From positions 186,001-250,000 of the forward strand of contig OZ210884.1 in assembly GCA_964658305.1 (NCBI GenBank): DNA of 64,000 nt. The letters run 5' to 3'. Source of the stretch: Leptogorgia sarmentosa. Taxonomy: Eukaryota. Below, one piece after another: positions 8,790 to 29,125 of the stretch (positions are counted from its first letter, which is position 1; each line of letters starts with the position of its first letter). The position numbers were made by a program, and so were the translations under genes. Below the pieces are notes generated by a model. It was not told the origin of the DNA. It ran no database searches and worked only from the letters and a program-made list of their open reading frames with translations.

Positions 8790-11121
8790 AATGAGAAGTA
8801 ATAAATTCTTCGATATCCTGTGGTTTTTTTGCTTCCACTATATGTTTGGCTGCAAGAAATTCTTGTACAGTTAAATGAATGAAACAAGCTTGAGCTTGAC
8901 AGAATGGGACGGGTAAACGATGCAACAATCCTGATTTTTCCATCTGCTCATTAACAAATTCACCATCAAAAATCAATTGGTCATTTTTCATACCATCAAA
9001 AGCCAACTGCTGGAGTTCCTTAATAACTTTTTCATAATGTTCTTTGGGGAGTTCTCGATTATGATTCTGATAAAAATGATGTAAAGCTTCTCGATACAGG
9101 TCAGTTAAAGTAGTTGGCAAGGCACTGCCATTGCCTTTATCACTTAGGCCATTTAATAAAGTAAAACAAACTATAAAACAGTTCACCGGAATATAACACA
9201 TGTTCTTTAGTTCTGATGATTTGATATGATTCCATATCTTTTGTTTTAGCTCATCTTTTTCATTATTAACACAAAATTTTTCGACGTAGTTCTCAATTTT
9301 CTCTTCAGTGAATCCAATTATCTCAACTTTTCGATCAAAATGAAGTTTTGATAAAACATCAATGGCAGTTGGTCTGCTAGTTACCAACACTGTTGCCCCA
9401 GGTAAAATCTGGTCAGACAAAATTTTAATGAAAAGAAACGTTGCTGATATGGGAGAACTAGAGTGGTTCGGGAGCATTTTAGACTGATCTAGAAAGTCCT
9501 GAAATTTCTGGAGATTCGCAAGATATTCATCAAAGCCATCAAAGACAAATATAGCATTTTGAGGGTTTGCCCATATTTCTTCAAAAACACTTTCAAATTC
9601 ATCTTGACTCAGTTGTGTTCCAAGTTGAAGAAATTTCTTAAGTGTCAAATTTTGTAATTGCTCAAAATGAAACCATCTAAATTTGAAAAAGAATGGAATC
9701 TTGCCTTGGTAAAATTCGTCAATCCCCCTGGCCCAATCCCGCATAATTTTCCGGGTCAAAACAGTTTTGCCAATTCCAGGTCTTCCAAGGACTAAAATAG
9801 TTTGTGGGGAATTACCCTTTGTATCCTTGTTTGGATGAAATAAATCTTTAACCTCTTCAAGACGTATCGAGTGTTCAGGAACTTTTATATAAACATCATT
9901 GATCTCATGTCTGGTCATATGTTTTAAAAATTTCAATGGTGCTCGTTCAGTTTGAATAACAACATCAATAAAAATCTCATCCAAATTTGTGTCTGTGTTG
10001 AGGCCATAGTTAATATCTGATGTTAGAGAAGCCTTCAAAATGTTTTTCTTGTAAATCTGGGCTGTGTTTGGAGTAGGAATGTCCATGCCGATCAGAGGAT
10101 TGACTTCAGGCATATGATGATTTCGAAGGAAATGGATGAATACAAATTCCATATCACATGACCAAGATTTGGGTTTAAAATAAGGAAATCGACCCCTTTT
10201 AGTTAAACGCCTTATCATGTAAATCACTTCGAAGAGCATTAGCAGTGTAAAAATTACATTACATCCAAACACTGCATAGCTACAAGATTGTTTATCCTGT
10301 GCAGCCAAGTTCATACATGTTACCATTGATTGAGGGACACTTCCATTCTTTGCTGTAGTTATGTTGAGGTCTGGGTAAATGCAACTGAATTCTGAATCAA
10401 AACCACTCGGATCATATAATATAGTAAACTGTAGGATGGTAACTAATACACCAAATATCGCCCGAACCACAAGGTGGAAGAAATAAAAGTAGAAAATATA
10501 TAAAGTTCTTGTACCTGGTTGATTGCGACCATTGAATGTTACCATTGATTGAGGGACACTTGCATTCTTTGCTGTAGTTATGTTGAGGTCTGGGTAAATG
10601 CAACTGAATTCTGAATCAAAACCACTCGGATCATATAATATAGTAAACTGTAGGATGGTAACTAATACACCAAATATCGCCCGAACCACAAGGTGGAAGA
10701 AATAAAAGTAGAAAATATATAAAGTTCTTGTACCTGGTTGATTGCGACCATTGAGAAGATGAGCGCCATCACTTCCGCCTTCAAAGTATTTTTCTACTTC
10801 GTCGACACGACTGCCAACAGCAAGCGAATAAATGAGACTCACAACAGCCACAGGAATGAAACTCAACAGGACGAAAGCATAAAGTCTGACAGGAGAGTTG
10901 TAGTCCTCGTTGTAGATTGAAAAACACGTTTTCTCCACGTATGTCTTGTGCGTCGCAAATGTTGTGTCGACCGCACAGCTGAACTTTTCCGTCTCTCCCG
11001 CTTTTAAATTTGTCGTAATAGCTATCAATACAACTCCACAAATTGAATGAAGTATCACACATACGTAAGCCGAGATACTAAATCTCTTCGGAGAAAAATA
11101 GTCCTTTATACTATCCATCAT
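8716..11121 (-). CDS. NLR copy 1: connexin-like TM domain (2x 73-aa repeat) + NACHT; frameshift at ~8775
   Basis: Walker A GRPGIGKT, Walker B IFVFDGFDE, VLVTSRP, IIGFT, FIHLTVQEFLAA; N-terminal hydrophobic helices with connexin-like loops. Confidence 0.88.
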   Translation of the reverse strand: MMDSIKDYFSPKRFSISAYVCVILHSICGVVLIAITTNLKAGETEKFSCAVDTTFATHKTYVEKTCFSIYNEDYNSPVRLYAFVLLSFIPVAVVSLIYSLAVGSRVDEVEKYFEGGSDGAHLLNGRNQPGTRTLYIFYFYFFHLVVRAIFGVLVTILQFTILYDPSGFDSEFSCIYPDLNITTAKNASVPQSMVTFNGRNQPGTRTLYIFYFYFFHLVVRAIFGVLVTILQFTILYDPSGFDSEFSCIYPDLNITTAKNGSVPQSMVTCMNLAAQDKQSCSYAVFGCNVIFTLLMLFEVIYMIRRLTKRGRFPYFKPKSWSCDMEFVFIHFLRNHHMPEVNPLIGMDIPTPNTAQIYKKNILKASLTSDINYGLNTDTNLDEIFIDVVIQTERAPLKFLKHMTRHEINDVYIKVPEHSIRLEEVKDLFHPNKDTKGNSPQTILVLGRPGIGKTVLTRKIMRDWARGIDEFYQGKIPFFFKFRWFHFEQLQNLTLKKFLQLGTQLSQDEFESVFEEIWANPQNAIFVFDGFDEYLANLQKFQDFLDQSKMLPNHSSSPISATFLFIKILSDQILPGATVLVTSRPTAIDVLSKLHFDRKVEIIGFTEEKIENYVEKFCVNNEKDELKQKIWNHIKSSELKNMCYIPVNCFIVCFTLLNGLSDKGNGSALPTTLTDLYREALHHFYQNHNRELPKEHYEKVIKELQQLAFDGMKNDQLIFDGEFVNEQMEKSGLLHRLPVPFCQAQACFIHLTVQEFLAAKHIVEAKKPQDIEEFITSHFEHGKLASGTSVSSWVVGKENENV
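10318..10754 (-). repeat. In-frame 219-bp tandem repeat, 2 copies
   Basis: NGRNQPGTRTLYIF...PQSMVT occurs twice. Confidence 0.95.
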
Positions 11122-11220
11122 CTTTGTAAAATCAGCGAAATATTCACAATTTTTACTGCGTTTTATACAAGAAATTTTGTTGAGACTTGATTTGATTGCG
11201 CTTCTGTTAATTTATGCCAT

Positions 11221-11348
11221 TGTGGTTTCCGTGGTTTCCGTTTCGAATAATTATCTCGCTACTACTTCATGTAACTTTACTAAAGTTGCCCTCTAAGCTG
11301 TAACGATCAAAAGTCGACACATTTTTGGTTTAGGAAAGCGGAAAAGTG
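11221..11348 (-). promoter_or_regulatory. ISRE/IRF-like motifs upstream of the NLR
   Basis: Minus strand CGAAACGGAAACC (11233-11245) fits GAAANNGAAA; GGAAAGCGGAAAAGTG at 11333-11348. Confidence 0.4.
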
Positions 11349-11892
11349 TTGCAAGCCAGAGAAGCCAGAGAAGCGATTGTTAAATTGATAAAATGCTTTG
11401 ATCAGCAACCTCACTATACGATATTATATGACACTTTGTTAAATTAACGCCGATTTAATTGGTTTTTTACCAACCTCGTACCCAGGGCCTTCGTAACGGC
11501 GGAGAAAACAGAAGGAAACGAAGGCCCTGGCCCTGGTAAACTCTGGTCACGTGTCGTCAGAAACGGGGCGTTTTTCTCCACGCGAGATTTTTTAGACGGG
11601 GGGTGAAAATAGTGGTTTTCACGTGTGATGCAATGAGAACGAAGCACTATAAGATATGCAATCTTCAAAAATGTTTTACGTTATATTTGATTAAAGGGCA
11701 ATGGATCAAAGTCGAATTAGTTCTTACACTAATAATCAATAAATTGGATATAAATGTATGTGCTGTAAACGATACCACTCGGAAATTTGGTGTAGAGTAT
11801 GAAGAAATTTGAAATTGGCTCGAAATATCAATGGGATATTTGTAACATATGCTGCTACCGAACAGCCTACACAGAACTTTATGCCGATTCAT

Positions 11893-12094
11893 GTAAAGCA
11901 TTTGAATGGATGAATTGTTTTATATTTATCGTTGATGTATGGTCTACGAAGTACGAACTCGGTACCGCTACAGGGAACTCAAGGGTATCGGGGTAAAGCA
12001 TTTGAATGGATGAATTGTTTTATATTTATCGTTGATGTATGGTCTACGAAGTACGAACTCGGTACCGCTACAGGGAACTCAAGGGTATCGGGGT
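11893..12094 (+). repeat. 100-bp tandem duplication (also at 20772-20973)
   Basis: gtaaagcatttgaatgg...gggtatcgggg occurs twice. Confidence 0.9.
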
Positions 12095-12602
12095 GAACTG
12101 AAAAATATACACTGTATTCGTATAATTATTTGAAATCGAACATAATTTAAACTTCAGTTGTGACCAAAGTACTCAAACTTGTTTAAAATGTTAATAAAAT
12201 ATTTGTATTGTGTGGGAACATTGTACAAAATATAAACATACTGTGTTTGTTGTAAGATACAAAAATTTAGGATATATATTGCAGCTAAATGAAATGAGAT
12301 TGTCCTTTACAAAAAGCTAGAAAGCTAAAGCTAAATGTCAAAGAATGACTTTGTTTAAATATTTGTTCTTTTGGCTTATTGGCATATAAATTGATAAAAT
12401 TCATATGTTCACTCAATTATGTATAAAAAGTCTGATGACAATCAATGTATTGCTTGTGTTTAATCTGATATATACACTATACAGGTTAAGACTACAATCC
12501 TGCACAAAAATAGTGGCAAAAAAACAACTTTTTACTTGAAAATCTGATTTTAAGGATATACCGGCTTTAATTTTGGCAAACTTTAGTAATTATTTTGAAT
12601 AA

Positions 12603-14321
12603 TTATTCCCATATCCCAAATGTTTGGACCATTTCTTCAGCCGACTTCACAAATTCAAAATTGGCAACAATTGAGTCTATCATCTTGAGTGTCAATCCTG
12701 TGCTTGCATCAATTCCTCCCATTTGATACCCTTCTGACCCCAACTTCAACCTGTACTCTCTCATCAACGTTCTTATCTTGTCTTGCTGACTTTTCAATAT
12801 ATTGCAGCTTGGTTGTGGTACTGGGTTATGTGGCTCTTCATGCATATCAGTTATAGTTAATGATTCATTCAATGGTTGCAGAACTTCGCAAGAGTTGCAT
12901 TTGCACATCTTTAAACAATTACTGCAGCACAAATGTCTGTCGGTTTCATTGGTTGTTGTCAAATTCGATCCCAAATACCTTAAAATTATATTTCTCAAAC
13001 AGCCAGATTCTTCACGACAAAACATGCGCACCTCTTCTGTCATTCCACGCTTATTTGATGCAATATCGTGACCATTATAGTATAAAGAAGCGTGTGCTTG
13101 CTTGCCATTTCTGCCAGCCCTGCCAATCTCTTGATAGTAAGACTCCAGTGTACAGGGAGGACCAATGTGTACAATGTGTCTAACATCTGGAATATCAACC
13201 CCCAAGCCAATTGCCACGGTTGCAAAAACAACCCTTGTTTTTCTTGATGAATCATGACCTTTCAATTGCGACAATATTTCTAGCTTCATTTCTTCAGTTT
13301 GTGGGGAATGGTACTGAGCAAACAAACAGTTTTTCGGAATCCTTTCGTCAGAAGGAATATAGCTTTTATCTTCTAGTTCCTCCATAAAAAGTTTGAATGC
13401 ATACCCACACCATTTTAGAGGAAGGTAAATGATGGTAAGTGGAAACAGAATTAAACTTTTCTTCAATTCCCTTGCAATTGGAAGCAATATGGAGTCGAAG
13501 CTTTCTTCATTTGTGGATGCTGGTTTCCTTTTTTTTTTCTCAATAAAAATATTCGGACGATTTAGATTGGCAACAACAACAAATGGTTTCTTAAGGTGTA
13601 GTGTGCATATAAGCTCATCTCTCATTTGTAGAGGCGCTGTAGCGGTAAGTATAAGGAAAGGCGCGTTTGGAAATATAGAACCTAGCTGAGCCAGCTTACT
13701 GAAGTCTGGACGAAATTCCCGTCCCCATTCTTCAACCAAGTGCGCCTCATCGATCACGCTGGCAACGATACGGTGTTGAAAACTATTGGACAGTAGGAGA
13801 CGTCTACCTTCTTTACATGAAATGAACGCCTCTGGGTGGGCAAAGATTATTTTGAAGTTCTCTTTATCGATATTTTGTTTGGTTTTTTCATCAGTCAATA
13901 ACCGCATGGATTGAGTTTCTGGGGCCTCTTCCTCGTCACTTTCACATTCCGATGTACTACTTTCGTATTTACCATGCTTTTCGGTGGACGTAATGGTGGT
14001 CGTAAGAACGGCAGCTTCTATTCCACGTTTTTTTAGAATAGATGTTTGGTCGCTAATCAAAGAATTTAAGGGTGTTACGATTAGAGCAGCGCATCCATGT
14101 CTGTGACTCAGTGTAGAAATGTTAATATAATCGTAGACGAAAGGAAATAAATGAAAGATTAGTGATTTCCCATAGCCTGTTGGTAAGATTGCAACAGTGT
14201 CACGTTTTTCCAGCAGAGATGCTAACACCTGGTACTGTTTAACTTTCAGAAATATATCTTCGTATTCCAGTTTATCCAATGCGTAACGCACAGCATGAAA
14301 AAATGAATTCAATGTATACAT
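12603..14321 (-). CDS. RecQ-like SF2 helicase (transposon-encoded), copy 1
   Basis: LPTGYGKS, IDEAH, LTATA, ATVAIGLGVDIPDV, YYQEIGRAGR, Cys-rich CCSNC; intronless. Confidence 0.9.
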   Translation of the reverse strand: MYTLNSFFHAVRYALDKLEYEDIFLKVKQYQVLASLLEKRDTVAILPTGYGKSLIFHLFPFVYDYINISTLSHRHGCAALIVTPLNSLISDQTSILKKRGIEAAVLTTTITSTEKHGKYESSTSECESDEEEAPETQSMRLLTDEKTKQNIDKENFKIIFAHPEAFISCKEGRRLLLSNSFQHRIVASVIDEAHLVEEWGREFRPDFSKLAQLGSIFPNAPFLILTATAPLQMRDELICTLHLKKPFVVVANLNRPNIFIEKKKRKPASTNEESFDSILLPIARELKKSLILFPLTIIYLPLKWCGYAFKLFMEELEDKSYIPSDERIPKNCLFAQYHSPQTEEMKLEILSQLKGHDSSRKTRVVFATVAIGLGVDIPDVRHIVHIGPPCTLESYYQEIGRAGRNGKQAHASLYYNGHDIASNKRGMTEEVRMFCREESGCLRNIILRYLGSNLTTTNETDRHLCCSNCLKMCKCNSCEVLQPLNESLTITDMHEEPHNPVPQPSCNILKSQQDKIRTLMREYRLKLGSEGYQMGGIDASTGLTLKMIDSIVANFEFVKSAEEMVQTFGIWE

Positions 14322-14523
14322 ACTTGAGTTTGTAGTTTAAAATCATTCTTATTTTAGATCATTATAGAAAGACCAGTACGAAAACGCTTTCAGTGCTCCA
14401 ATTTGTTTAATTAAAACTATTTATATCGATTAGACAATTAACAACCTATGAGTCATCGCGAAAAAAAGACGGAAAAAAGGAAGTTTGCAAGAGTTTCTTA
14501 TTCACTTGCTGACCTCTCAAAAC

Positions 14524-15671
14524 ATGAGCTCAACACCTAGGAAGGAGTATTTTACATGGAAAAATGTTGATTATTGTTGTTTATGTGAAACCAGCGACAA
14601 CTCAGATCGATTTACAAACATATTTAGTGTTCCTGGACAAAGGAAGGCATTGCCGCAAAAAATCAAAAACCTGCTTGGTACAAAAATTACCACGGGGCTC
14701 ACGGGAGCGTCCTTACGAATTTGCAGAAGTTGCGAGCTCAAAATTAACAACTTCTCCAAATACAAAACATCTGCGTCGTCTGCCCTCATGGGTTTAAAAG
14801 AAATTGTAACTTCAAAACGGTGCCTGAAATTCTCGCCGCAAAAAGATAGAAAAAGGGCGAACGTCGATTTTTCCAGCTCGGGTGGCGAAAATGAAGATGA
14901 AAGCGCTGACCATGCGCCACCGCCTGCATTGCAGTCTGAGGTTGGTATGCCGAAACTTAATTTTTAAGACAAGTGTTTGAATCACAAATAAATAATGGTA
15001 TCTATAGCTACTATCGACTTTCCATTACTTTCCAATGCAAATTCACAGGAAATTCACTGGTCCACTACAGCGAAATATATATAGGGTTATTACACGGTCG
15101 TGCACTTACGCATGAGCGCAGCGAATGAGTAATTAGTAAAATATCATTTTACCACGAGAAAATAAAATTAATATCTTCAAAACCGCCGTATAATTTTCTT
15201 ATATGGTCGTGAAACCGAAAAATTGGTTCGTCGTTCTTGGACAAACGTCTCCATTTTGAAAACAAATTTATTGGGGGAAATTATCATCGATATATTTACT
15301 AGTGAAGATATGGAAAATGTCCGACTGTGTATTTTTCGGTATCTCACTGTCTACTATAATAAAACGGTGTCTCTGTTGTACTTTAGGTGTCAGTTTCTAC
15401 TGCAATGGAAGTCATTATTTCTCAAGTCGAGAAAGAGTGCTCGATGCTTTGTTGGAGACAGCAACCGTCAGAACTGCGAAAAAATGACTTTCCTAGCATG
15501 AGCACGTTTACCTGGGATAAGTTGACGGATGAGATGGTCAGTCGTTGCCCTTTGTTGCTGGATATCTTATTAACTGCTATGGGATACTCTAAGGATAATA
15601 TAGACGAGATCGTCCCACGCCTTTCCTTGTGCTATGCTATTTTATTGCAGAGCAGAAACCATGAGCTGACG
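14524..15671 (+). pseudogene. Truncated transposase gene copy (exons 14524-14940 and 15387-15671)
   Basis: Identical to copy 2 up to SRNHELT, then fused to the sequence starting at 7010. Confidence 0.8.
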
Positions 15672-16492
15672 ACAAAATATTTTCCAGTGCGGACCTCCCA
15701 GCTGGTAAATAACATATATTTATTTTTTTCGGTCCGTAACTCCCGGTCCGTAACCTAAATATAGCTTTCTGATTGGTTGCTGAGCGGTCCGTATCCTACG
15801 ATTTTGAGACCTCGACAAAATATTTTCCAGTACGGACCTCCCAGCTGGTAAATAACATATATATAATTTCAAAGTGTTCTATGGCTTTGAAATCGACATA
15901 TTTACAAAAACAGTTTAACTTGATAAATACACACCAAAAAGCACGGGAAAGACAACAGTTACAGAATTAAAGTAGTTGACCTTACGTTTAAACTTTAGCT
16001 AGTTTTAAATTTCAGCATTTTTCATCTGTATTTTTGTTGCACTTGAAAGTACAAAACCAGCAATACAAATTTTACCGTTGTAAAATGTCAACAAACAGCA
16101 ACAAGCGATCCAACTAAGTCAAGCGATGAATTTTACAGCGTCGAGTTGACTATTTTCCAGATTCAAAACTGCACAATTAACATTTACAACTAAACTTCTT
16201 CAATTTTATTCTTTTAATCGGTCGCAAAGACGTTTTTAACTGATGACAACTTCAATTCTATCTTCGCTCTTTCAACCATTTTGTTTACAGTTCTTCTCTT
16301 GACTGATATGAGCTAACATCCATCTTTTAGAGAACAAATCAGATTGCAGAATAGCTCATATCCAGGGCTTGTGTATATAATAATTAAAATTCTATTTGAT
16401 GATTGTGATGCTAGTTATAGTACTTCTTTGTTTCAAGGTACCCAATTGATCTCAAGAAAAAGAGAAATAAATCCAACTAGCATTTCAGGTAA

Positions 16493-17449
16493 TTAATACA
16501 TACACACATATAGATTTCCCTTTGTTTTCCTGACAGGGCAATAAAAATTGTGTACCACCTGTGGGCAATACAGGAAAAACCTGAGAAGCAGTCCGAGCCA
16601 ACTTGTGCTTTCAGTGGTTAAAGAACATCCTGGAAGAGACAACACCTTAAGTCCATGCTGCTTCGCTTTTAATGCATTACATAGAAATCGCATGCCATCA
16701 TCACCTACATTCCGACAATAAGTAAGATTGAGCACTGCAAGTTGCTTACAAGCCTCATAGCCCAGAACATCACAAAACGTAGAAATTCCATCAGAAGTGA
16801 TTCCATCATTGCCTCTCAAGCATAACTCCTTCAGACAAATCCTATGACCATTTTTAAGAAACTCAGTTAACGTGGATAAATCAGCATCAGTAATACCGTA
16901 GACAGAAAGATCCAGGTGAGCGAGTTTAGAATGTTCGTGATTAATGTGACATTGTGATGTTGTTATTGCAGTAAGAAGATGTTCCAGGACCTCTTGTACA
17001 GGGGAAATTTCGCACTCGGTGATGGTTAATGCTTCAATGCATCTGTGGCGAAGTAATTTTGTAATTTCTACCACAAAATCAACATGTGCTATCCGATTCA
17101 AAGATAAGTTTTTTAAACGTTTTAAGTGCTTGCAAACAAACACAAGTGCCGCCAAATCACTTGGGGGAAGCGATTCTCCGCGATAATGGAATATCTTAGT
17201 CACGTCTTTCAAAGCAGATGTCATTACGACTTCTTCTGCAATATCTTCACTCTCTGTTTCTCTTAAACACTTCATCATCAACATTCGATCAGCCCGCGGT
17301 TTGTAAACAGTATCCCCATCTTCAATTTCAATTTGCAAATGTTCTCTAAAAGCCAAAAGGCAACTCTTGTATTCTTCAGACATTTTCATTCTCTTTCCCA
17401 ACAACCCAGCTAGAAACTGAAGTACCAGATGCCAATTTGCCATGTTCAA
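16493..17449 (-). CDS. NLR copy 2, C-terminal LRR part, out of frame
   Basis: Identical peptide to 7833-8789. Confidence 0.85.
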   Translation of the reverse strand: MNMANWHLVLQFLAGLLGKRMKMSEEYKSCLLAFREHLQIEIEDGDTVYKPRADRMLMMKCLRETESEDIAEEVVMTSALKDVTKIFHYRGESLPPSDLAALVFVCKHLKRLKNLSLNRIAHVDFVVEITKLLRHRCIEALTITECEISPVQEVLEHLLTAITTSQCHINHEHSKLAHLDLSVYGITDADLSTLTEFLKNGHRICLKELCLRGNDGITSDGISTFCDVLGYEACKQLAVLNLTYCRNVGDDGMRFLCNALKAKQHGLKVLSLPGCSLTTESTSWLGLLLRFFLYCPQVVHNFYCPVRKTKGNLYVCMY

Positions 17450-20000
17450 AATGAGAAGTAATAAATTCTTCGATATCCTGTGGTTTTTTTGCTTCCACTA
17501 TATGTTTGGCTGCAAGAAATTCTTGTACAGTTAAATGAATGAAACAAGCTTGAGCTTGACAGAATGGGACGGGTAAACGATGCAACAATCCTGATTTTTC
17601 CATCTGCTCATTAACAAATTCACCATCAAAAATCAATTGGTCATTTTTCATACCATCAAAAGCCAACTGCTGGAGTTCCTTAATAACTTTTTCATAATGT
17701 TCTTTGGGGAGTTCTCGATTATGATTCTGATAAAAATGATGTAAAGCTTCTCGATACAGGTCAGTTAAAGTAGTTGGCAAGGCACTGCCATTGCCTTTAT
17801 CACTTAGGCCATTTAATAAAGTAAAACAAACTATAAAACAGTTCACCGGAATATAACACATGTTCTTTAGTTCTGATGATTTGATATGATTCCATATCTT
17901 TTGTTTTAGCTCATCTTTTTCATTATTAACACAAAATTTTTCGACGTAGTTCTCAATTTTCTCTTCAGTGAATCCAATTATCTCAACTTTTCGATCAAAA
18001 TGAAGTTTTGATAAAACATCAATGGCAGTTGGTCTGCTAGTTACCAACACTGTTGCCCCAGGTAAAATCTGGTCAGACAAAATTTTAATGAAAAGAAACG
18101 TTGCTGATATGGGAGAACTAGAGTGGTTCGGGAGCATTTTAGACTGATCTAGAAAGTCCTGAAATTTCTGGAGATTCGCAAGATATTCATCAAAGCCATC
18201 AAAGACAAATATAGCATTTTGAGGGTTTGCCCATATTTCTTCAAAAACACTTTCAAATTCATCTTGACTCAGTTGTGTTCCAAGTTGAAGAAATTTCTTA
18301 AGTGTCAAATTTTGTAATTGCTCAAAATGAAACCATCTAAATTTGAAAAAGAATGGAATCTTGCCTTGGTAAAATTCGTCAATCCCCCTGGCCCAATCCC
18401 GCATAATTTTCCGGGTCAAAACAGTTTTGCCAATTCCAGGTCTTCCAAGGACTAAAATAGTTTGTGGGGAATTACCCTTTGTATCCTTGTTTGGATGAAA
18501 TAAATCTTTAACCTCTTCAAGACGTATCGAGTGTTCAGGAACTTTTATATAAACATCATTGATCTCATGTCTGGTCATATGTTTTAAAAATTTCAATGGT
18601 GCTCGTTCAGTTTGAATAACAACATCAATAAAAATCTCATCCAAATTTGTGTCTGTGTTGAGGCCATAGTTAATATCTGATGTTAGAGAAGCCTTCAAAA
18701 TGTTTTTCTTGTAAATCTGGGCTGTGTTTGGAGTAGGAATGTCCATGCCGATCAGAGGATTGACTTCAGGCATATGATGATTTCGAAGGAAATGGATGAA
18801 TACAAATTCCATATCACATGACCAAGATTTGGGTTTAAAATAAGGAAATCGACCCCTTTTAGTTAAACGCCTTATCATGTAAATCACTTCGAAGAGCATT
18901 AGCAGTGTAAAAATTACATTACATCCAAACACTGCATAGCTACAAGATTGTTTATCCTGTGCAGCCAAGTTCATACATGTTACCATTGATTGAGGGACAC
19001 TTCCATTCTTTGCTGTAGTTATGTTGAGGTCTGGGTAAATGCAACTGAATTCTGAATCAAAACCACTCGGATCATATAATATAGTAAACTGTAGGATGGT
19101 AACTAATACACCAAATATCGCCCGAACCACAAGGTGGAAGAAATAAAAGTAGAAAATATATAAAGTTCTTGTACCTGGTTGATTGCGACCATTGAATGTT
19201 ACCATTGATTGAGGGACACTTGCATTCTTTGCTGTAGTTATGTTGAGGTCTGGGTAAATGCAACTGAATTCTGAATCAAAACCACTCGGATCATATAATA
19301 TAGTAAACTGTAGGATGGTAACTAATACACCAAATATCGCCCGAACCACAAGGTGGAAGAAATAAAAGTAGAAAATATATAAAGTTCTTGTACCTGGTTG
19401 ATTGCGACCATTGAATGTTACCATTGATTGAGGGACACTTGCATTCTTTGCTGTAGTTATGTTGAGGTCTGGGTAAATGCAACTGAATTCTGAATCAAAA
19501 CCACTCGGATCATATAATATAGTAAACTGTAGGATGGTAACTAATACACCAAATATCGCCCGAACCACAAGGTGGAAGAAATAAAAGTAGAAAATATATA
19601 AAGTTCTTGTACCTGGTTGATTGCGACCATTGAGAAGATGAGCGCCATCACTTCCGCCTTCAAAGTATTTTTCTACTTCGTCGACACGACTGCCAACAGC
19701 AAGCGAATAAATGAGACTCACAACAGCCACAGGAATGAAACTCAACAGGACGAAAGCATAAAGTCTGACAGGAGAGTTGTAGTCCTCGTTGTAGATTGAA
19801 AAACACGTTTTCTCCACGTATGTCTTGTGCGTCGCAAATGTTGTGTCGACCGCACAGCTGAACTTTTCCGTCTCTCCCGCTTTTAAATTTGTCGTAATAG
19901 CTATCAATACAACTCCACAAATTGAATGAAGTATCACACATACGTAAGCCGAGATACTAAATCTCTTCGGAGAAAAATAGTCCTTTATACTATCCATCAT
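17376..20000 (-). CDS. NLR copy 2: connexin-like TM domain (3x 73-aa repeat) + NACHT; frameshift at ~17435
   Basis: As copy 1, plus one extra 219-bp unit. Confidence 0.88.
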   Translation of the reverse strand: MMDSIKDYFSPKRFSISAYVCVILHSICGVVLIAITTNLKAGETEKFSCAVDTTFATHKTYVEKTCFSIYNEDYNSPVRLYAFVLLSFIPVAVVSLIYSLAVGSRVDEVEKYFEGGSDGAHLLNGRNQPGTRTLYIFYFYFFHLVVRAIFGVLVTILQFTILYDPSGFDSEFSCIYPDLNITTAKNASVPQSMVTFNGRNQPGTRTLYIFYFYFFHLVVRAIFGVLVTILQFTILYDPSGFDSEFSCIYPDLNITTAKNASVPQSMVTFNGRNQPGTRTLYIFYFYFFHLVVRAIFGVLVTILQFTILYDPSGFDSEFSCIYPDLNITTAKNGSVPQSMVTCMNLAAQDKQSCSYAVFGCNVIFTLLMLFEVIYMIRRLTKRGRFPYFKPKSWSCDMEFVFIHFLRNHHMPEVNPLIGMDIPTPNTAQIYKKNILKASLTSDINYGLNTDTNLDEIFIDVVIQTERAPLKFLKHMTRHEINDVYIKVPEHSIRLEEVKDLFHPNKDTKGNSPQTILVLGRPGIGKTVLTRKIMRDWARGIDEFYQGKIPFFFKFRWFHFEQLQNLTLKKFLQLGTQLSQDEFESVFEEIWANPQNAIFVFDGFDEYLANLQKFQDFLDQSKMLPNHSSSPISATFLFIKILSDQILPGATVLVTSRPTAIDVLSKLHFDRKVEIIGFTEEKIENYVEKFCVNNEKDELKQKIWNHIKSSELKNMCYIPVNCFIVCFTLLNGLSDKGNGSALPTTLTDLYREALHHFYQNHNRELPKEHYEKVIKELQQLAFDGMKNDQLIFDGEFVNEQMEKSGLLHRLPVPFCQAQACFIHLTVQEFLAAKHIVEAKKPQDIEEFITSHFEHGKLASGTSVSSWVVGKENENV
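18978..19633 (-). repeat. In-frame 219-bp tandem repeat, 3 copies
   Basis: 73-aa unit three times; overlapping 63-aa ORFs at 219-bp offset. Confidence 0.95.
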
Positions 20001-21481
20001 CTTTGTAAAATCAGCGAAATATTCACAATTTTTACTGCGTTTTATACAAGAAATTTTGTTGAGACTTGATTTGATTGCGCTTCTGTTAATTTATGCCATT
20101 GTGGTTTCCGTGGTTTCCGTTTCGAATAATTATCTCGCTACTACTTCATGTAACTTTACTAAAGTTGCCCTCTAAGCTGTAACGATCAAAAGTCGACACA
20201 TTTTTGGTTTAGGAAAGCGGAAAAGTGTTGCAAGCCAGAGAAGCCAGAGAAGCGATTGTTAAATTGATAAAATGCTTTGATCAGCAACCTCACTATACGA
20301 TATTATATGACACTTTGTTAAATTAACGCCGATTTAATTGGTTTTTTACCAACCTCGTACCCAGGGCCTTCGTAACGGCGGAGAAAACAGAAGGAAACGA
20401 AGGCCCTGGCCCTGGTAAACTCTGGTCACGTGTCGTCAGAAACGGGGCGTTTTTCTCCACGCGAGATTTTTTAGACGGGGGGTGAAAATAGTGGTTTTCA
20501 CGTGTGATGCAATGAGAACGAAGCACTATAAGATATGCAATCTTCAAAAATGTTTTACGTTATATTTGATTAAAGGGCAATGGATCAAAGTCGAATTAGT
20601 TCTTACACTAATAATCAATAAATTGGATATAAATGTATGTGCTGTAAACGATACCACTCGGAAATTTGGTGTAGAGTATGAAGAAATTTGAAATTGGCTC
20701 GAAATATCAATGGGATATTTGTAACATATGCTGCTACCGAACAGCCTACACAGAACTTTATGCCGATTCATGTAAAGCATTTGAATGGATGAATTGTTTT
20801 ATATTTATCGTTGATGTATGGTCTACGAAGTACGAACTCGGTACCGCTACAGGGAACTCAAGGGTATCGGGGTAAAGCATTTGAATGGATGAATTGTTTT
20901 ATATTTATCGTTGATGTATGGTCTACGAAGTACGAACTCGGTACCGCTACAGGGAACTCAAGGGTATCGGGGTGAACTGAAAAATATACACTGTATTCGT
21001 ATAATTATTTGAAATCGAACATAATTTAAACTTCAGTTGTGACCAAAGTACTCAAACTTGTTTAAAATGTTAATAAAATATTTGTATTGTGTGGGAACAT
21101 TGTACAAAATATAAACATACTGTGTTTGTTGTAAGATACAAAAATTTAGGATATATATTGCAGCTAAATGAAATGAGATTGTCCTTTACAAAAAGCTAGA
21201 AAGCTAAAGCTAAATGTCAAAGAATGACTTTGTTTAAATATTTGTTCTTTTGGCTTATTGGCATATAAATTGATAAAATTCATATGTTCACTCAATTATG
21301 TATAAAAAGTCTGATGACAATCAATGTATTGCTTGTGTTTAATCTGATATATACACTATACAGGTTAAGACTACAATCCTGCACAAAAATAGTGGCAAAA
21401 AAACAACTTTTTACTTGAAAATCTGATTTTAAGGATATACCGGCTTTAATTTTGGCAAACTTTAGTAATTATTTTGAATAA

Positions 21482-23200
21482 TTATTCCCATATCCCAAAT
21501 GTTTGGACCATTTCTTCAGCCGACTTCACAAATTCAAAATTGGCAACAATTGAGTCTATCATCTTGAGTGTCAATCCTGTGCTTGCATCAATTCCTCCCA
21601 TTTGATACCCTTCTGACCCCAACTTCAACCTGTACTCTCTCATCAACGTTCTTATCTTGTCTTGCTGACTTTTCAATATATTGCAGCTTGGTTGTGGTAC
21701 TGGGTTATGTGGCTCTTCATGCATATCAGTTATAGTTAATGATTCATTCAATGGTTGCAGAACTTCGCAAGAGTTGCATTTGCACATCTTTAAACAATTA
21801 CTGCAGCACAAATGTCTGTCGGTTTCATTGGTTGTTGTCAAATTCGATCCCAAATACCTTAAAATTATATTTCTCAAACAGCCAGATTCTTCACGACAAA
21901 ACATGCGCACCTCTTCTGTCATTCCACGCTTATTTGATGCAATATCGTGACCATTATAGTATAAAGAAGCGTGTGCTTGCTTGCCATTTCTGCCAGCCCT
22001 GCCAATCTCTTGATAGTAAGACTCCAGTGTACAGGGAGGACCAATGTGTACAATGTGTCTAACATCTGGAATATCAACCCCCAAGCCAATTGCCACGGTT
22101 GCAAAAACAACCCTTGTTTTTCTTGATGAATCATGACCTTTCAATTGCGACAATATTTCTAGCTTCATTTCTTCAGTTTGTGGGGAATGGTACTGAGCAA
22201 ACAAACAGTTTTTCGGAATCCTTTCGTCAGAAGGAATATAGCTTTTATCTTCTAGTTCCTCCATAAAAAGTTTGAATGCATACCCACACCATTTTAGAGG
22301 AAGGTAAATGATGGTAAGTGGAAACAGAATTAAACTTTTCTTCAATTCCCTTGCAATTGGAAGCAATATGGAGTCGAAGCTTTCTTCATTTGTGGATGCT
22401 GGTTTCCTTTTTTTTTTCTCAATAAAAATATTCGGACGATTTAGATTGGCAACAACAACAAATGGTTTCTTAAGGTGTAGTGTGCATATAAGCTCATCTC
22501 TCATTTGTAGAGGCGCTGTAGCGGTAAGTATAAGGAAAGGCGCGTTTGGAAATATAGAACCTAGCTGAGCCAGCTTACTGAAGTCTGGACGAAATTCCCG
22601 TCCCCATTCTTCAACCAAGTGCGCCTCATCGATCACGCTGGCAACGATACGGTGTTGAAAACTATTGGACAGTAGGAGACGTCTACCTTCTTTACATGAA
22701 ATGAACGCCTCTGGGTGGGCAAAGATTATTTTGAAGTTCTCTTTATCGATATTTTGTTTGGTTTTTTCATCAGTCAATAACCGCATGGATTGAGTTTCTG
22801 GGGCCTCTTCCTCGTCACTTTCACATTCCGATGTACTACTTTCGTATTTACCATGCTTTTCGGTGGACGTAATGGTGGTCGTAAGAACGGCAGCTTCTAT
22901 TCCACGTTTTTTTAGAATAGATGTTTGGTCGCTAATCAAAGAATTTAAGGGTGTTACGATTAGAGCAGCGCATCCATGTCTGTGACTCAGTGTAGAAATG
23001 TTAATATAATCGTAGACGAAAGGAAATAAATGAAAGATTAGTGATTTCCCATAGCCTGTTGGTAAGATTGCAACAGTGTCACGTTTTTCCAGCAGAGATG
23101 CTAACACCTGGTACTGTTTAACTTTCAGAAATATATCTTCGTATTCCAGTTTATCCAATGCGTAACGCACAGCATGAAAAAATGAATTCAATGTATACAT
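21482..23200 (-). CDS. RecQ-like SF2 helicase, copy 2
   Basis: Identical to 12603-14321. Confidence 0.9.
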   Translation of the reverse strand: MYTLNSFFHAVRYALDKLEYEDIFLKVKQYQVLASLLEKRDTVAILPTGYGKSLIFHLFPFVYDYINISTLSHRHGCAALIVTPLNSLISDQTSILKKRGIEAAVLTTTITSTEKHGKYESSTSECESDEEEAPETQSMRLLTDEKTKQNIDKENFKIIFAHPEAFISCKEGRRLLLSNSFQHRIVASVIDEAHLVEEWGREFRPDFSKLAQLGSIFPNAPFLILTATAPLQMRDELICTLHLKKPFVVVANLNRPNIFIEKKKRKPASTNEESFDSILLPIARELKKSLILFPLTIIYLPLKWCGYAFKLFMEELEDKSYIPSDERIPKNCLFAQYHSPQTEEMKLEILSQLKGHDSSRKTRVVFATVAIGLGVDIPDVRHIVHIGPPCTLESYYQEIGRAGRNGKQAHASLYYNGHDIASNKRGMTEEVRMFCREESGCLRNIILRYLGSNLTTTNETDRHLCCSNCLKMCKCNSCEVLQPLNESLTITDMHEEPHNPVPQPSCNILKSQQDKIRTLMREYRLKLGSEGYQMGGIDASTGLTLKMIDSIVANFEFVKSAEEMVQTFGIWE

Positions 23201-23402
23201 ACTTGAGTTTGTAGTTTAAAATCATTCTTATTTTAGATCATTATAGAAAGACCAGTACGAAAACGCTTTCAGTGCTCCAATTTGTTTAATTAAAACTATT
23301 TATATCGATTAGACAATTAACAACCTATGAGTCATCGCGAAAAAAAGACGGAAAAAAGGAAGTTTGCAAGAGTTTCTTATTCACTTGCTGACCTCTCAAA
23401 AC

Positions 23403-26400
23403 ATGAGCTCAACACCTAGGAAGGAGTATTTTACATGGAAAAATGTTGATTATTGTTGTTTATGTGAAACCAGCGACAACTCAGATCGATTTACAAACAT
23501 ATTTAGTGTTCCTGGACAAAGGAAGGCATTGCCGCAAAAAATCAAAAACCTGCTTGGTACAAAAATTACCACGGGGCTCACGGGAGCGTCCTTACGAATT
23601 TGCAGAAGTTGCGAGCTCAAAATTAACAACTTCTCCAAATACAAAACATCTGCGTCGTCTGCCCTCATGGGTTTAAAAGAAATTGTAACTTCAAAACGGT
23701 GCCTGAAATTCTCGCCGCAAAAAGATAGAAAAAGGGCGAACGTCGATTTTTCCAGCTCGGGTGGCGAAAATGAAGATGAAAGCGCTGACCATGCGCCACC
23801 GCCTGCATTGCAGTCTGAGGTTGGTATGCCGAAACTTAATTTTTAAGACAAGTGTTTGAATCACAAATAAATAATGGTATCTATAGCTACTATCGACTTT
23901 CCATTACTTTCCAATGCAAATTCACAGGAAATTCACTGGTCCACTACAGCGAAATATATATAGGGTTATTACACGGTCGTGCACTTACGCATGAGCGCAG
24001 CGAATGAGTAATTAGTAAAATATCATTTTACCACGAGAAAATAAAATTAATATCTTCAAAACCGCCGTATAATTTTCTTATATGGTCGTGAAACCGAAAA
24101 ATTGGTTCGTCGTTCTTGGACAAACGTCTCCATTTTGAAAACAAATTTATTGGGGGAAATTATCATCGATATATTTACTAGTGAAGATATGGAAAATGTC
24201 CGACTGTGTATTTTTCGGTATCTCACTGTCTACTATAATAAAACGGTGTCTCTGTTGTACTTTAGGTGTCAGTTTCTACTGCAATGGAAGTCATTATTTC
24301 TCAAGTCGAGAAAGAGTGCTCGATGCTTTGTTGGAGACAGCAACCGTCAGAACTGCGAAAAAATGACTTTCCTAGCATGAGCACGTTTACCTGGGATAAG
24401 TTGACGGATGAGATGGTCAGTCGTTGCCCTTTGTTGCTGGATATCTTATTAACTGCTATGGGATACTCTAAGGATAATATAGACGAGATCGTCCCACGCC
24501 TTTCCTTGTGCTATGCTATTTTATTGCAGAGCAGAAACCATGAGCTGACGCTAGTGCAACGACTCAATACCATATTGATGACAAATGGTAATGCAAAGAA
24601 GCAGGTATGGTATGTTAAATACCTGGTATTGAAATTATGTGAAAAGTTCAGTTTATTTAACACACGCATAACCGAAAATATAATCAACACAAACAAGATA
24701 CTTGTCAAGCGTGTATTCGAGCGAAAACAATTTTTAGGCACACAAATTTCACCAAAATAATGCAAAATAAATTCAAAACCATATGTTGATGGGTGATATA
24801 CAGGGGGTGGACAAAAAAAAGTGGCCCCCAGAACAATTCGGTTTTTACTGAAAAACATCTCTCTCAAGTAATCGGGAATGCAGAACCCCGTTTGGTTTGA
24901 GTACGACCTAAGCAAATTTATAAATCTTTCAACCTAAGCAAATTTAAATCTCAAAATTTAAATCCTCTTTAAATCTGCAAGGTTGTGGGGCTTGCCGCTT
25001 ATAAACCGAATTGTTCTGGGGGCCACTTTTTTTGTCCACCCCCTGTAAGTCTGAGTAATTAAGACAATTCTAAACATTACTGTATATCATTATATAATTT
25101 TACTCTTGTAACAAGTTGTACATATAATTGTTTTTCAGCTTTTTGTACAGTGCCAGAAAATGGGATTTTGTCTGTCACATACGAGCAAGATAAAGCTTTT
25201 AGATATCCTGGGTAACCACTTTGCTGATAGCGCAATCGATCAAATTCGTCTAGGAAACAATCTTCAAGAAACGGGAGATAATTGGGACATGAAGATACGT
25301 CCCCACGACATGCTATCTACGAATCAAAATGTTGACTTGCACAATTTTGCTTCCAACCTCATCGTTGAACGAGTCCCTTGTGACAATCTATCCAAAACGT
25401 CACCTCAAAAAGACATACTTTCGTTGCCAAACTCAACATTTCTTTTAAGTTCGGCAGAAGTTACAAAGCTAAGGGAGGATTTTAAAGTGTTGGTCGCACG
25501 AATTCTTGTGGCAAACATACCACAATTGTCGTTTCTCAGTAGTATCGTCCCCCAACATATCCCACATATGTATCAACAGGAAATGGCGAGGAAATCAACG
25601 ATCATCCCATTGCCCATGCAAATGAAGGATGAGAAGAAATATGAAGATGTCGTCGATACCTTGGATTCATATGAACAGGAATTACAAGATATTTATGTAA
25701 GAGCCGGTGCCGTACAAAAACCGAAGGGGCCAGAACAGCAGCAGCAGCCACCCGGAATTGTAAATGGCGAATCGGCAACACCAGATCAAGCCGCAGCGCA
25801 CTTCAAGAAAAATGAGGCAAACGACCACATGAACGGGATAGCAGTACCATTCGGAGGAGACCAAATGACTCGAGTTCGGTTTGCGGGTGCCAAGGATTTG
25901 AGAGCCGGAGCACACACAGCGAAACAACGTTTTGATCACTGCAGTCCATTTGTTTCAGAGCTGTTCCATACCAAAATGGCCTATGTACAGGTAAAAATAA
26001 ATAAATAAATGTAAATAACATAAATACATGTCACAGTATTGTGCAACTGTAGGTCTTAATAAATAATACAATTAATGTTCATTATGGGTTAATTCAATAA
26101 AAACCCAAAGGCCATGTTACACGGTGCAATTTAAGAAAAATTGCAACGCAATTCCACTTTTGGGCGATGTGCAATTGGCGAATACAAGTCTTTAATATAT
26201 TTTCCTAATGAATTCTTTACAGATCAAACAGATCAAACAGATCAAACAGTCTTCACTAATTAACATCTCTTAAGAGTAGAATTGCGTTGCAAGTTGCAGG
26301 AAAAATTGCACCGTGTAACATGGCCTTAAATACTACAGCAATTTATTTTTTTAAATGTAGTTCATTTTCAACCTACTGTACAAGTCAGGGTCTGCAAGAG

Positions 26401-27492
26401 AGGTAGGTACATTAAAGTTTTTTCGTGAAAAATACAACCGCCGAAATGTTACTCCTGACAAAGTTGCTAACTCGTATGAAGGAACAGAGCAATTCATCTT
26501 GAGTGTTGGTAAGGCATACCTACTATATGCAGCATTGGATTTCTGGGGAATGGAGAAGTTGGATGGCCAGCTCACAAATCATGTACCTTCCCATGGAATA
26601 CTTCACAAGACAAAGGAAAAGAAAATAGACTACTTCAATGAAGTTATTGGCAACTTTGTAGACGAGTATGTGGTAGTTGATCCAGATAAAGAGTGCAACA
26701 ACAATGGGCAGGAAGTTGATGATGATAATGATGATGAAATTGAGCAAGCAGACAGAGTTAGGTATGTAGGTGTATACATACACACATACAGTGATATATT
26801 AAATAATTCTAGAATTTGATATACAGCATATTCATATGTGTTACATTTTACACAGGGCATATGGATTGAATGTCATAGAACTTACAGTTTTCCTCATGCA
26901 GTTAATTGATACTTGTAAAGAAGGGGATGGTGAACGGAGTATGATCAACAAAAAGAGGCTGTTAATGTACTTCAAGTCATCATCATCTTTTCAAAATTAC
27001 TCGATAGCAATGTTTACTAGCATTGCTCAAGTTGAAGCACTGGTTTCTGAAGAAATGGCCCATCGACTGACATGGGGAAGATTCGTGAATTGGCATGGTG
27101 GTGCTGGCAAAAATATAGCTTGTGACATGGCGCAGGAAATATGTAATCGAACAAGCAAGGATGTTGTAAGGGGTATGGGAGCAAATAAAACGAGAAAAGC
27201 TATGATGCGGGCATCCAAAGCTTCTGCTGGTGTTTTCCAGATTGTGCAGCAAGTATGCAACACAACAAAGATCAAAAAGAGCTCTCAAGCACACACCCAC
27301 AAAAATAACGATGATGAGATTCTGATGCTGCAAGACCTGCAGAAGTTAAAGCCTTTTGAGATGAATCCTGGCAGATATCACTTGAATTTTAAAAATATGC
27401 AAGTCTCTCCTACTAGTACAGTTGATATGGCAAAGCTGTTCAGTTGGCTAGAAAAGCACAAGAAGCAGATTGCAAGGGGAAAACTTTCATAG
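23403..27492 (+). CDS. Academ-type (DUF6589-like) transposase, 5 exons: 23403-23819, 24266-24604, 25139-25990, 26361-26761, 26856-27492; 881 aa
   Basis: All introns GT-AG and phase-compatible; N-terminal CCLC..ICRSC zinc finger; GDNWD, PFGGDQMTRVR, ELFHTKM, KEGDGER, GKNIACD motifs. Confidence 0.82.
24801..25045. mobile_element. Tc1/mariner-type MITE in transposase intron 2
   Basis: TIR cagggggtggacaaaaaaaagtggcccccagaacaattcggttt; TA TSD. Confidence 0.85.
26110..26325. mobile_element. PIF/Harbinger-like MITE in transposase intron 3
   Basis: TIR ggccatgttacacggtgcaattt. Confidence 0.75.
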
Positions 27493-28529
27493 GTTGGGAA
27501 CACATAATAGGGGGGATGAACAAACATGTGTCTTGCCATGACAAGAAAACAGATTGCAGGCTTATAGTATAAAGTTGCCATGAATAATTAGACAAGTAAA
27601 TATAAATCTTAAAATAGAAAAAATTTGCTTTGAATTTTAAGATAACTCAGGGTTAAACTAATCGGCATTTGAACGACCAACCCCTGAACTTTTAAAGCAT
27701 TTATATTCCTGTGTATGAATTTCAGTTGTATTCAGTTTATGTAGTAATTCTAACGAATATTTGTAAATAATTCCATATAATTTATCATATTTAGTAACCA
27801 ATTCGAAAGTAATGCCTGTGAGATTGTGACAAAACATACATTCATAAGTATTGTGTATAAAATGGCCAGTTATTGTGGATTTACTGTTACTACATTGAAT
27901 ACGATTTCAAGGTATGTTAGTAACTACTTGGTTTTCATTTGTAATCGTAGAACAGCAACAACAAATACATGTCTTTCGTACCTTATTAATACTTCGTTGT
28001 CGTTTGAAACATCCCATTCCCATGGCATGGGACCATAAATGTGCTCGGCGATTACTTCGGTAATGATGGCATAACATCAGGCAGATGTAAAGGCAGCTGA
28101 CGCGTGTTCGACGTAATATATAAACGTTGAATCACAAAAAAATAAATGAATATGAATAATCTGCGGCACCCCTATTGACCGCCATTTGCCTTTCGTGAAC
28201 TTTTCGTAGCTCCCCTGTCTTTATTTTCATAAAACCTGCTCGCAGGCTAATACTCCAAGAATCATGGAGTATTAGCCTGACACGTGACCAGAGTTTACCA
28301 GGGCCTTCGTTTCCTTCTGTTTTCTCCGCCGTTACGAAGGCCCTGGGTACGAGGTTGAGTTGATTCGGGCTTCGCCCTCATCAACTATCACCTCATAGAA
28401 ATCTCGAGCTCGTAATCTAATTGTTAAATAAACGGTTATATTAAAATCATGACGTCATGGTACGTTAGCTCTATATCATCTAACGCTCACCGCTTTAAAG
28501 AATTTGAAAGTTTTCTAGTTTATAGGTAT

Positions 28530-28597
28530 GGAGCGGCCAGATTTGAATCACCGGCCTCTCGATCTGCAGTCGAATTAATGCACCGAGCTACACTCCT
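28530..28597 (-). pseudogene. tRNA-Cys(GCA) pseudogene
   Basis: Degenerate match to the other Cys copies. Confidence 0.6.
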
Positions 28598-28725
28598 TGT
28601 GTAGACTACTAGGTTAATTACGTACATATTATTTCAAACACAGCTATAACCAATTCACGGAGCTCTTTTTTTCAATTTTACATTCAAATACAAAATCATT
28701 CTTGGCATGTTTTACAACCTTAATT

Positions 28726-28771
28726 CTCTCCCGCGTGGCAGGCGAGAATTCTACCACTGAACCACCAAGGC
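28726..28771 (-). pseudogene. tRNA-Gly(GCC) 5' fragment
   Basis: Matches the 33057 copy; 3' half missing. Confidence 0.65.
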
Positions 28772-29053: not shown

Positions 29054-29125
29054 TTCCCATGCCGGGAATCGAACCCGGGCCTTGGCGGTGAGAGCGCCAG
29101 ATCCTTACCACTGGACTACATGGGA
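29054..29125 (-). tRNA. tRNA-Glu(CTC)
   Basis: Cloverleaf, loop CTCTCAC, GTTCGATTC. Confidence 0.88.

What the first reader, a model, noticed from the sequence alone, without database searches (positions are those of the whole stretch)
16493..20000. NLR with an N-terminal connexin-like channel domain (connexin-NACHT-LRR)
Seen: the NACHT is preceded, in one uninterrupted frame, by hydrophobic helices and loops. By eye these follow connexin order: TM1, then E..KFSC...KTCFSIY...SPVRLYAF (compare connexin DEQS.F.CNT...CYD..PISH.R.W), TM2, FYFFHLVVRAIFG..LQFTILY..GFDSEFSC (TM3/EL2), and VTC..AAQDK..FTLLMLFEVIYM (compare VDCF.SRPTEK..LLN..EL.YL). Each loop has 2 Cys rather than the 3 of chordate connexins. 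Established: canonical connexins are chordate hexameric large-pore channels, and NACHT domains oligomerise on activation. Inference: NACHT oligomerisation could assemble or gate a large pore, making a self-contained immune effector channel and a possible clue to connexin origin. TM-bearing anthozoan NLRs may already be catalogued; the channel function is untested here. A second copy lies at 7833-11121.
Basis: partly seen in the sequence, partly recalled or inferred. Interest (0 to 1): 0.9.

Follow-up and report, generated by a model that had tools for sequence, protein, structure and literature searches.

The report
Broken copy of connexin-like NLR receptor
This is a damaged, duplicated copy of an already described coral immune-receptor gene whose front end resembles the vertebrate gap-junction channel connexin; relatives from other corals are reported to form membrane pores, but this copy is probably non-functional.

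Summary
A hydrophobic N-terminal domain runs in one frame into a NACHT domain. Its single-unit relatives are connexin-like: Pfam Connexin hits 20 of 22 aligned domains at E≤1 (best 4.6e-9). A model of a 76%-identical homologue returns connexins in the first 40 Foldseek rows shown. This is the anthozoan CxL-NLR family, noted in 2013 (PMC3879445) and characterised in a June 2026 preprint (10.64898/2026.06.13.731801), which reports two-Cys loops, hexamer models and ATP/glutamate-permeable hemichannels gated by depolarisation and CO2. The window copy is damaged three ways: TM3/EL2 is triplicated (0 of 199 homologues), a +1 frameshift cuts off HD2-LRR, and about 230 C-terminal residues are missing. 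Its own sequence gets no Connexin hit. The second copy belongs to an 8.66-kb tandem duplication, identical except for one repeat unit. It is most likely a recent pseudogene; an assembly error is not excluded. Whether the NLR module gates the pore remains open, but an intact paralogue is the right test object.

The parts
18780..20000 (-). Connexin-like (CxL) N-terminal domain: N-terminal helix, TM1, EL1 (2 Cys), TM2, loop, TM3/EL2 in three copies, TM4
   Evidence: Translation; hydropathy; 76% identical to P0001 N-terminus (two-unit copy); homologue profile and fold match connexins
18977..19633 (-). In-frame 219-bp (73-aa) tandem repeat, three units, each TM3 plus most of EL2; the unit nearest the NACHT differs by 1 nt
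   Evidence: TRF; unit comparison; absent from 199 of 199 homologues tested
17931..18464 (-). NACHT domain with intact Walker A and Walker B
   Evidence: Pfam PF05729 E=1.6e-26; translation
17430..17440 (-). +1 frameshift in the conserved HGK-WHLV stretch; the first frame stops at 17376-17378, giving 875 aa
   Evidence: tblastn frame switch; the extra base is absent from contigs in 4 of 4 runs laid and from 2 of 2 related loci
16581..17440 (-). HD2 and RI-type LRRs, out of frame with the NACHT and cut short at 16581
   Evidence: LRR_6 E=9.9e-5; matches P0001 712-996 of 1227; L002 alignment ends at 16580 while its ORF continues
7833..11121 (-). Second copy: same frameshift and truncation, two repeat units (10317-10754) instead of three
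7010..24550 (.). Tandem duplication 7010-15669 / 15670-24550 with a 2-nt (CG) overlap at the junction; 0 differences in 8660 bp apart from the extra repeat unit
   Evidence: Self-blastn; direct comparison and junction sequences
20350..28357 (.). 8-kb element with perfect 60-nt terminal inverted repeats, RecQ-like helicase, zf-AD and DUF6589 pieces, 350 bp upstream of the start codon; its left part is copied at 11471-15669. Likely an AcademH-type DNA transposon (label recalled)
   Evidence: Inverted repeat I25; Pfam; termini; no target-site duplication seen

Best explanation
The locus is a damaged, tandemly duplicated copy of an anthozoan connexin-like NLR (CxL-NACHT-LRR) gene, likely from an octocoral and likely a recent pseudogene. 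Shown here: the domain order, the connexin-like profile and predicted fold of single-unit relatives, and three lesions (TM3/EL2 amplification, +1 frameshift before HD2-LRR, loss of about 230 C-terminal residues). Reported for other species (preprint): CxL domains reach the plasma membrane, are modelled as hexamers or heptamers, release ATP and glutamate on depolarisation or raised CO2, and in anthozoans act as hemichannels, not gap junctions. Inferred for intact relatives: the CxL domain assembles the pore by itself and holds a ring of NACHT-LRR modules on its cytosolic side; the LRR/NACHT module likely senses a danger or microbial signal and biases the pore open, releasing ATP as an immune signal (not tested anywhere I read; about 0.35-0.4). 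Inferred history of this copy: TM3/EL2 duplication, frameshift and 3' truncation came first, then the 8.66-kb duplication, then gain or loss of one unit in one copy.
For: Family: 69 homologues, 68 with NACHT, 9 with precomputed PF00029; the 9 hits that name an organism name Dendronephthya gigantea or Paramuricea clavata. 282 clusters at 50% identity with E≤0.001. Pfam Connexin in 20 of 22 domains at E≤1, best 4.6e-9; no innexin or pannexin family among the 22 families listed. Profile versus PDB sequences: Cx32 best, E=0.0016; pannexin-2 E=0.7. P0001 model: pLDDT 72.9, four long helices with strands in both loops. Foldseek best Cx31.3 E=8.1e-6, first pannexin at rank 42. VIA ranks 1-5 are connexins, best Z 14.7, rmsd 3.4, 162 aligned. 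Damage. The three-unit domain folds poorly (pLDDT 56.2, pTM 0.42) and has no Foldseek hit at E≤0.001. Contigs from 4 runs (at most 3 samples) lack the extra base, including a 292-nt piece with 5 other letters and 1 gap. Literature.
Against: Little decay: 12 deviations at 265 conserved columns, against a median of 8 in 60 homologues (range 2-32; 3-9 in the closest), no internal stops, Walker motifs intact. The lesions are therefore very young or partly assembly errors. The two copies are base-identical and the window's own form was not demonstrated in any run; at 17450 every laid contig in all 4 runs differs from the window. The window domain and P0001 each get no Pfam Connexin hit alone. In VIA, LRRC8A (Z 13.9) ties with the top connexins and pannexins (13.3) are close, so fold alone does not separate the large-pore families.
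Confidence: 0.65

Rival explanations
1. The animal carries one intact (or less damaged) CxL-NLR here, and the frameshift, repeat number and/or 8.66-kb duplication are assembly or consensus errors.
For: 0 differences between the copies over 8660 bp. Contigs in 4 of 4 runs lack the extra base; summed contig depth dips in the bin holding one repeat junction (19271-19447), a weak sign; an X1 contig matches 15329-15671 and then runs on unlike the window. Conserved columns are barely decayed.
Against: Three different lesion types sit in one gene. The repeat units carry one diagnostic substitution in the same unit of both copies. The large junction has a 2-nt overlap, which fits a real rearrangement better than a merged overlap (inference). 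The runs differ from the window at many sites, so they are probably other individuals or paralogues, and contigs cannot show absence. One of two related loci is also frameshifted, at another site (L001).
Confidence: 0.2
2. The copy is expressed as an 875-aa, LRR-less CxL-NACHT with six membrane helices. Three TM3 units would keep TM4 and the NACHT on the cytosolic side (two units would invert them), so the product might act as a deregulated or dominant-negative subunit.
For: The frame from Met 20000 is open through NACHT and winged helix. The family is typically single-exon, and NACHT-bearing constructs of 50-62 kDa form channels (preprint). The parity argument follows from the helix count (inference).
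Against: No such amplification in 199 homologues. The model is low-confidence and loses the connexin match. The sister copy has the parity-breaking two units with otherwise identical sequence. There is no evidence of expression either way.
Confidence: 0.1
3. The N-terminal domain belongs to the innexin/pannexin/LRRC8 branch of four-helix large-pore channels, or is only convergently connexin-like.
For: Two Cys per loop as in innexins (preprint). VIA Z for LRRC8A 13.9 and pannexins 13.3 lie within 1.4 of the best connexin, 14.7. Identity to connexins is only 13-20%.
Against: Sequence signal points to connexins: Pfam 20 of 22 with no innexin or pannexin family listed; Cx32 E=0.0016 against pannexin-2 E=0.7, with the aligned 'C...S..dK....' EL2/TM4 motif; Foldseek order. 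The preprint reports HHpred 99.95% to Cx31.3 and no significant network link to innexins.
Confidence: 0.05

Closest known systems
Anthozoan CxL-NLR (connexin-NLR) family, bioRxiv 10.64898/2026.06.13.731801 (main text read whole); earlier as TM-bearing cnidarian NLRs with a Gene3D gap-junction domain match, PMC3879445 and PMC5094078 (passages read)
   Same: N-terminal four-helix connexin-like domain with two Cys per extracellular loop, then NACHT and LRRs, with no sign of introns; member of a multicopy family
   Different: This copy has TM3/EL2 in three (or two) tandem units, a frameshift before HD2-LRR and a truncated LRR tail, so it cannot encode the canonical protein of about 1200 aa
Chordate connexins (Cx26, Cx31.3, Cx32, Cx43, Cx46/50; Pfam PF00029)
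   Same: Predicted fold and helix/loop order in a close homologue; weak profile similarity across TM2-TM4
   Different: Two instead of three Cys per loop, 13-20% identity, longer EL2 with N-glycosylation sequons, fused NLR module; anthozoan members are reported not to form gap junctions
LRRC8 and pannexin/innexin large-pore channels
   Same: Four-helix large-pore fold (Z 13.9 and 13.3); LRRC8 also carries cytosolic LRRs (recalled)
   Different: No Pfam family match, much weaker profile and Foldseek ranks, and no NACHT in those channels (recalled)
Plant CNL resistosomes such as ZAR1 (recalled, not tested)
   Same: Conceptual parallel only: an NLR whose N-terminal domain forms a membrane channel
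   Different: NB-ARC and coiled-coil based, with the pore formed on activation; CxL pores are reported to assemble and gate without an NLR ligand

Membership tests
Anthozoan CxL-NLR | N-terminal domain homologous to CxL domains | tested here: met
   76% to P0001; 60% over 192 aa to P0022, which carries precomputed PF00029
Anthozoan CxL-NLR | NACHT in frame behind the CxL domain | tested here: met
   One ORF 17376-20090; PF05729 E=1.6e-26
Anthozoan CxL-NLR | C-terminal LRRs in the same protein | tested here: not met
   LRR coding DNA is present but out of frame and truncated: a gene-family member by descent, not an intact tripartite protein
Anthozoan CxL-NLR | Two Cys per extracellular loop | tested here: met
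   C49, C66 and two EL2 Cys invariant in 22 of 22 and 54 of 54; the repeat adds extra copies of one EL2 Cys
Anthozoan CxL-NLR | CxL domain coded by a single exon | tested here: inconclusive
   Open genomic frame colinear with homologues; no transcript examined
Anthozoan CxL-NLR | Forms an ATP-permeable hemichannel | not testable with these tools
   Reported for other species only (preprint)
Connexin superfamily | Four-TM connexin fold | tested here: met
   Met for the single-unit homologue P0001; see the next row for the window's own product
Connexin superfamily | Four-TM fold in the window's own three-unit product | tested here: inconclusive
   Six hydrophobic helices; low-confidence model, best Foldseek row Cx50 E=3.1
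Canonical chordate connexin (PF00029) | Pfam Connexin above the curated cut-off | tested here: not met
   No hit for the window domain up to E=10. Some relatives pass (P0153, 31.7 bits against cut-off 31.3; best E 4.6e-9)
Canonical chordate connexin (PF00029) | Three Cys per extracellular loop | tested here: not met
   Two per loop; the preprint notes that epsilon-clade connexins also have two
Canonical chordate connexin (PF00029) | Hexamer and gap-junction docking | not tested
   No oligomer model was run; the preprint models hexamers/heptamers and finds no coupling for three cnidarian CxLs
Innexin/pannexin/LRRC8 | Family profile match | tested here: inconclusive
   Pannexin-2 only at E=0.7; structural Z close to connexins
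AcademH transposon (neighbouring element) | TIRs plus helicase (DEAD, Helicase_C) | tested here: met
   60-nt TIRs; Pfam; PMC10799480 passages tie these domains to AcademH, KolobokH or Helitron
AcademH transposon (neighbouring element) | Academ transposase and target-site duplication | tested here: inconclusive
   DUF6589 pieces present (the link to Academ is recalled); no TSD at the flanks; primary description not read

The most novel reading that the evidence does not exclude
Intact members of this family are ligand-gated immune channels: a signal sensed by the LRRs rearranges the ring of NACHT domains beneath a pre-assembled connexin-like hexamer and opens it, an animal counterpart of plant resistosome channels built on the connexin fold. 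The preprint did not test this. The window's LRR-less, six-helix product would then be a natural deregulated variant, though that last part is much less likely (about 0.1).
Probability: 0.35. Interest if true: 0.7.

Novelty: new member of a known kind. Interest (0 to 1): 0.2.

Why it matters
The family matters: it moves the origin of connexins back to the cnidarian-bilaterian ancestor and ties them to innate immunity. That case is already made, with functional data, in the June 2026 preprint, and the domain match dates from 2013. This window adds independent sequence and fold confirmation for a probable octocoral clade and an example of rapid turnover in an NLR cluster (internal TM3 amplification, frameshift, truncation, tandem duplication next to a DNA transposon). 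The open question, whether the NLR module gates the pore, is testable, but with an intact paralogue and not with this copy.

Tried and rejected
Direct Pfam and phmmer searches with the window's domain, whole or in parts: no connexin hit. A BLAST self-comparison for internal repeats missed the window's own repeat (failed positive control), so that part is void. It was replaced by a diagonal scan that detects the control 40/40: 199 of 216 proteins tested (17 under 200 aa dropped); 13 scored 16/40 or more, all in linkers, LRRs, low-complexity tails or a whole-domain duplication, none a TM3/EL2 unit. Folding the three-unit domain gave a poor model and no significant match; this is weak evidence, as the alignment covers only one unit. 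No remainder of the LRR tail was found elsewhere in the window; no whole genome was available to look further. Run search: 12 of 17 listed runs hold part of the stretch, in 4 studies; no RNA holder listed, which says nothing about expression. Only 4 of the 17 runs were laid, at 90% likeness, so paralogues mix in. No innexin or pannexin family appeared in the Pfam scan. Capture of the NLR as transposon cargo was rejected: the gene lies outside the TIRs. Splicing around the lesions was considered but not tested; the family is reported as typically single-exon. CO2 motif: the window has Arg where 15 of 60 homologues have Lys at the start of TM3, but equivalence to the preprint's K140 could not be checked, so no claim is made. 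PMC8260672 has no occurrence of 'connexin'. A search for connexin + NOD-like receptor + cnidarian up to 2025 listed one unrelated paper; a DUF6589 search listed one paper on rust fungi, not opened. Two look-ups of earlier scan findings returned nothing.
Full report
Observation. The minus strand carries one stop-free frame from 20090 to 17376 (Met at 20000) and a second, overlapping frame from 17497 to 16493. The first holds a hydrophobic N-terminal region and a NACHT domain (PF05729, E=1.6e-26); the second holds HD2-region sequence and RI-type LRRs (LRR_6, E=9.9e-5). Hydropathy finds six helices before the NACHT, three of them copies of TM3 produced by a 219-bp in-frame tandem repeat at 18977-19633. 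A second copy lies at 7833-11121 with two repeat units.

Family. A search with the N-terminal 340 aa found 69 proteins at E≤0.001 among 1764 candidates of 440-1402 aa; 68 have a NACHT and 9 carry a precomputed Connexin hit. Nine rows name an organism, either Dendronephthya gigantea or Paramuricea clavata (octocorals, recalled), so an octocoral source is inferred. A profile of 22 N-terminal domains (21 homologues chosen by hand for spread, plus the window's) finds 282 clusters at 50% identity with E≤0.001; of the 150 listed, 69 newly returned ones are 450 aa or longer and 58 of these have a P-loop motif.

Is it connexin-like? The window's own domain gives no Connexin hit, nor does P0001 alone, but 20 of 22 aligned domains hit PF00029 at E≤1 (best 4.6e-9), and no innexin or pannexin family is listed. 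The profile's best PDB sequence match is Cx32 (E=0.0016), against 0.7 for pannexin-2. The AlphaFold2 model of the P0001 domain (pLDDT 72.9, pTM 0.64) has four long helices and strands in both loops. Foldseek lists connexins in the first 40 rows shown (best Cx31.3, E=8.1e-6, TM 0.54/0.68) and the first pannexin at rank 42. VIA ranks connexins 1-5 (Z 14.7-13.9), but LRRC8A (13.9) and pannexins (13.3) are close, and helical bundles score high in general. So the fold shows a large-pore channel, and the sequence signal picks connexins.

What is known. PMC3879445 (2013; passages) reported cnidarian NLRs with three to four N-terminal TM helices and a Gene3D match to the gap-junction channel domain. 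PMC5094078 (2016; passages) found such NLRs in sea anemones. The preprint 10.64898/2026.06.13.731801 (main text read whole; figures, Table 1, reference list and supplements not seen) names them CxL-NLRs. It reports 4-100 copies per coral genome, 92% with NACHT, two Cys per loop, typically single-exon genes, HHpred 99.95% to Cx31.3 and hexamer/heptamer models. In HeLa cells it shows ATP and glutamate release on depolarisation and, for a subset, CO2, with no gap-junction coupling for three cnidarian constructs. Every conceptual step of the finding except NACHT-driven gating is therefore in print.

State of this copy. (1) TM3/EL2 is triplicated; none of 199 homologues tested has such a unit. The three-unit domain models poorly (pLDDT 56.2) and has no Foldseek match at E≤0.001. 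(2) One extra base near 17434 shifts the frame at the conserved HGK-WHLV stretch, ending the protein at 875 aa without HD2 or LRRs. Contigs in 4 of 4 laid runs (at most 3 samples) lack this base, and so do 2 of 2 related loci. About half the contig depth at that site in three runs is not listed as lacking it, which may be contig ends or the window's form; this was not resolved. (3) Homology ends at 16581, position 996 of 1227 in P0001, leaving 277 aa after WHLV against a median of 484 in 59 homologues; L002 continues in frame past this point. Otherwise the gene is little decayed: 12 deviations at 265 conserved columns against a median of 8 in 60 homologues. The lesions are young.

Surroundings. 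Both copies belong to a tandem duplication, 7010-15669 and 15670-24550, with no difference in 8660 bp except the unit number, and a 2-nt overlap at the junction. An 8-kb element with perfect 60-nt inverted ends (20350-28357) starts 350 bp upstream of the start codon. It encodes a RecQ-like helicase, a zf-AD and DUF6589 pieces and is likely an AcademH-type transposon (label recalled; no TSD found). The duplication breakpoint falls inside it, and the NLR lies outside it.

Mechanism. Shown here: architecture and connexin-like fold in relatives. Reported: hemichannel activity of CxL domains with or without a NACHT. Inferred: in intact genes the CxL domain forms the pore itself, the NACHT-LRR ring hangs beneath it, and sensing by the NLR module likely biases opening to release ATP as a danger signal (about 0.35-0.4; I found no test in the preprint or in searches). 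For this locus the most likely reading is a recent pseudogene (0.65). Rivals are an assembly artefact (0.2), an expressed LRR-less six-helix variant (0.1; three units would keep the NACHT cytosolic, two would not) and a non-connexin large-pore ancestry (0.05).

Verdict. The family is described and functionally tested, and this member is broken. New member of a known kind; interest 0.2.

Noticed in passing
window 20350-28357 (partial copy 11471-15669): 8-kb element with perfect 60-nt TIRs, a 577-aa RecQ-like helicase frame, a zf-AD frame and DUF6589 pieces that look like exons; likely an AcademH-type transposon; no TSD seen.
   Followed up: partly
protein P0110 (778 aa, representative library): Two CxL domains in tandem (about aa 1-250 and 363-620) with no NACHT and no Pfam hit at E≤0.001; may be two neighbouring genes read as one.
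   Followed up: partly
protein P0139 (637 aa): CxL domain (Connexin E=3.4e-5) followed by LRRs, with no NACHT hit or P-loop motif.
   Followed up: no
L001:1036-1117: A related NLR locus has its own frameshift inside the NACHT-associated region, at another site than the window's.
   Followed up: no
proteins P0046, P0050, P0074, P0078, P0149, P0157, P0162, P0177: The region just behind the CxL domain often carries low-complexity tandem repeats of variable length.
   Followed up: no
window 44557-48276: Frameshifted non-LTR retrotransposon on the minus strand (endonuclease and RT frames, an upstream ORF1-like frame).
   Followed up: no
window 53215-56411: 68-bp satellite, about 38 copies, with strong strand skew and TAACCC-like words.
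   Followed up: no
window 1657-2756, 2793-6424, 28487-39637: A 141-bp tandem array, a 1.75-kb direct duplication at 97% identity, and a nest of 85-94% inverted and direct repeat fragments.
   Followed up: no
window 60870-61502: 210-aa minus-strand frame with a SAP domain (E=4.1e-5).
   Followed up: no
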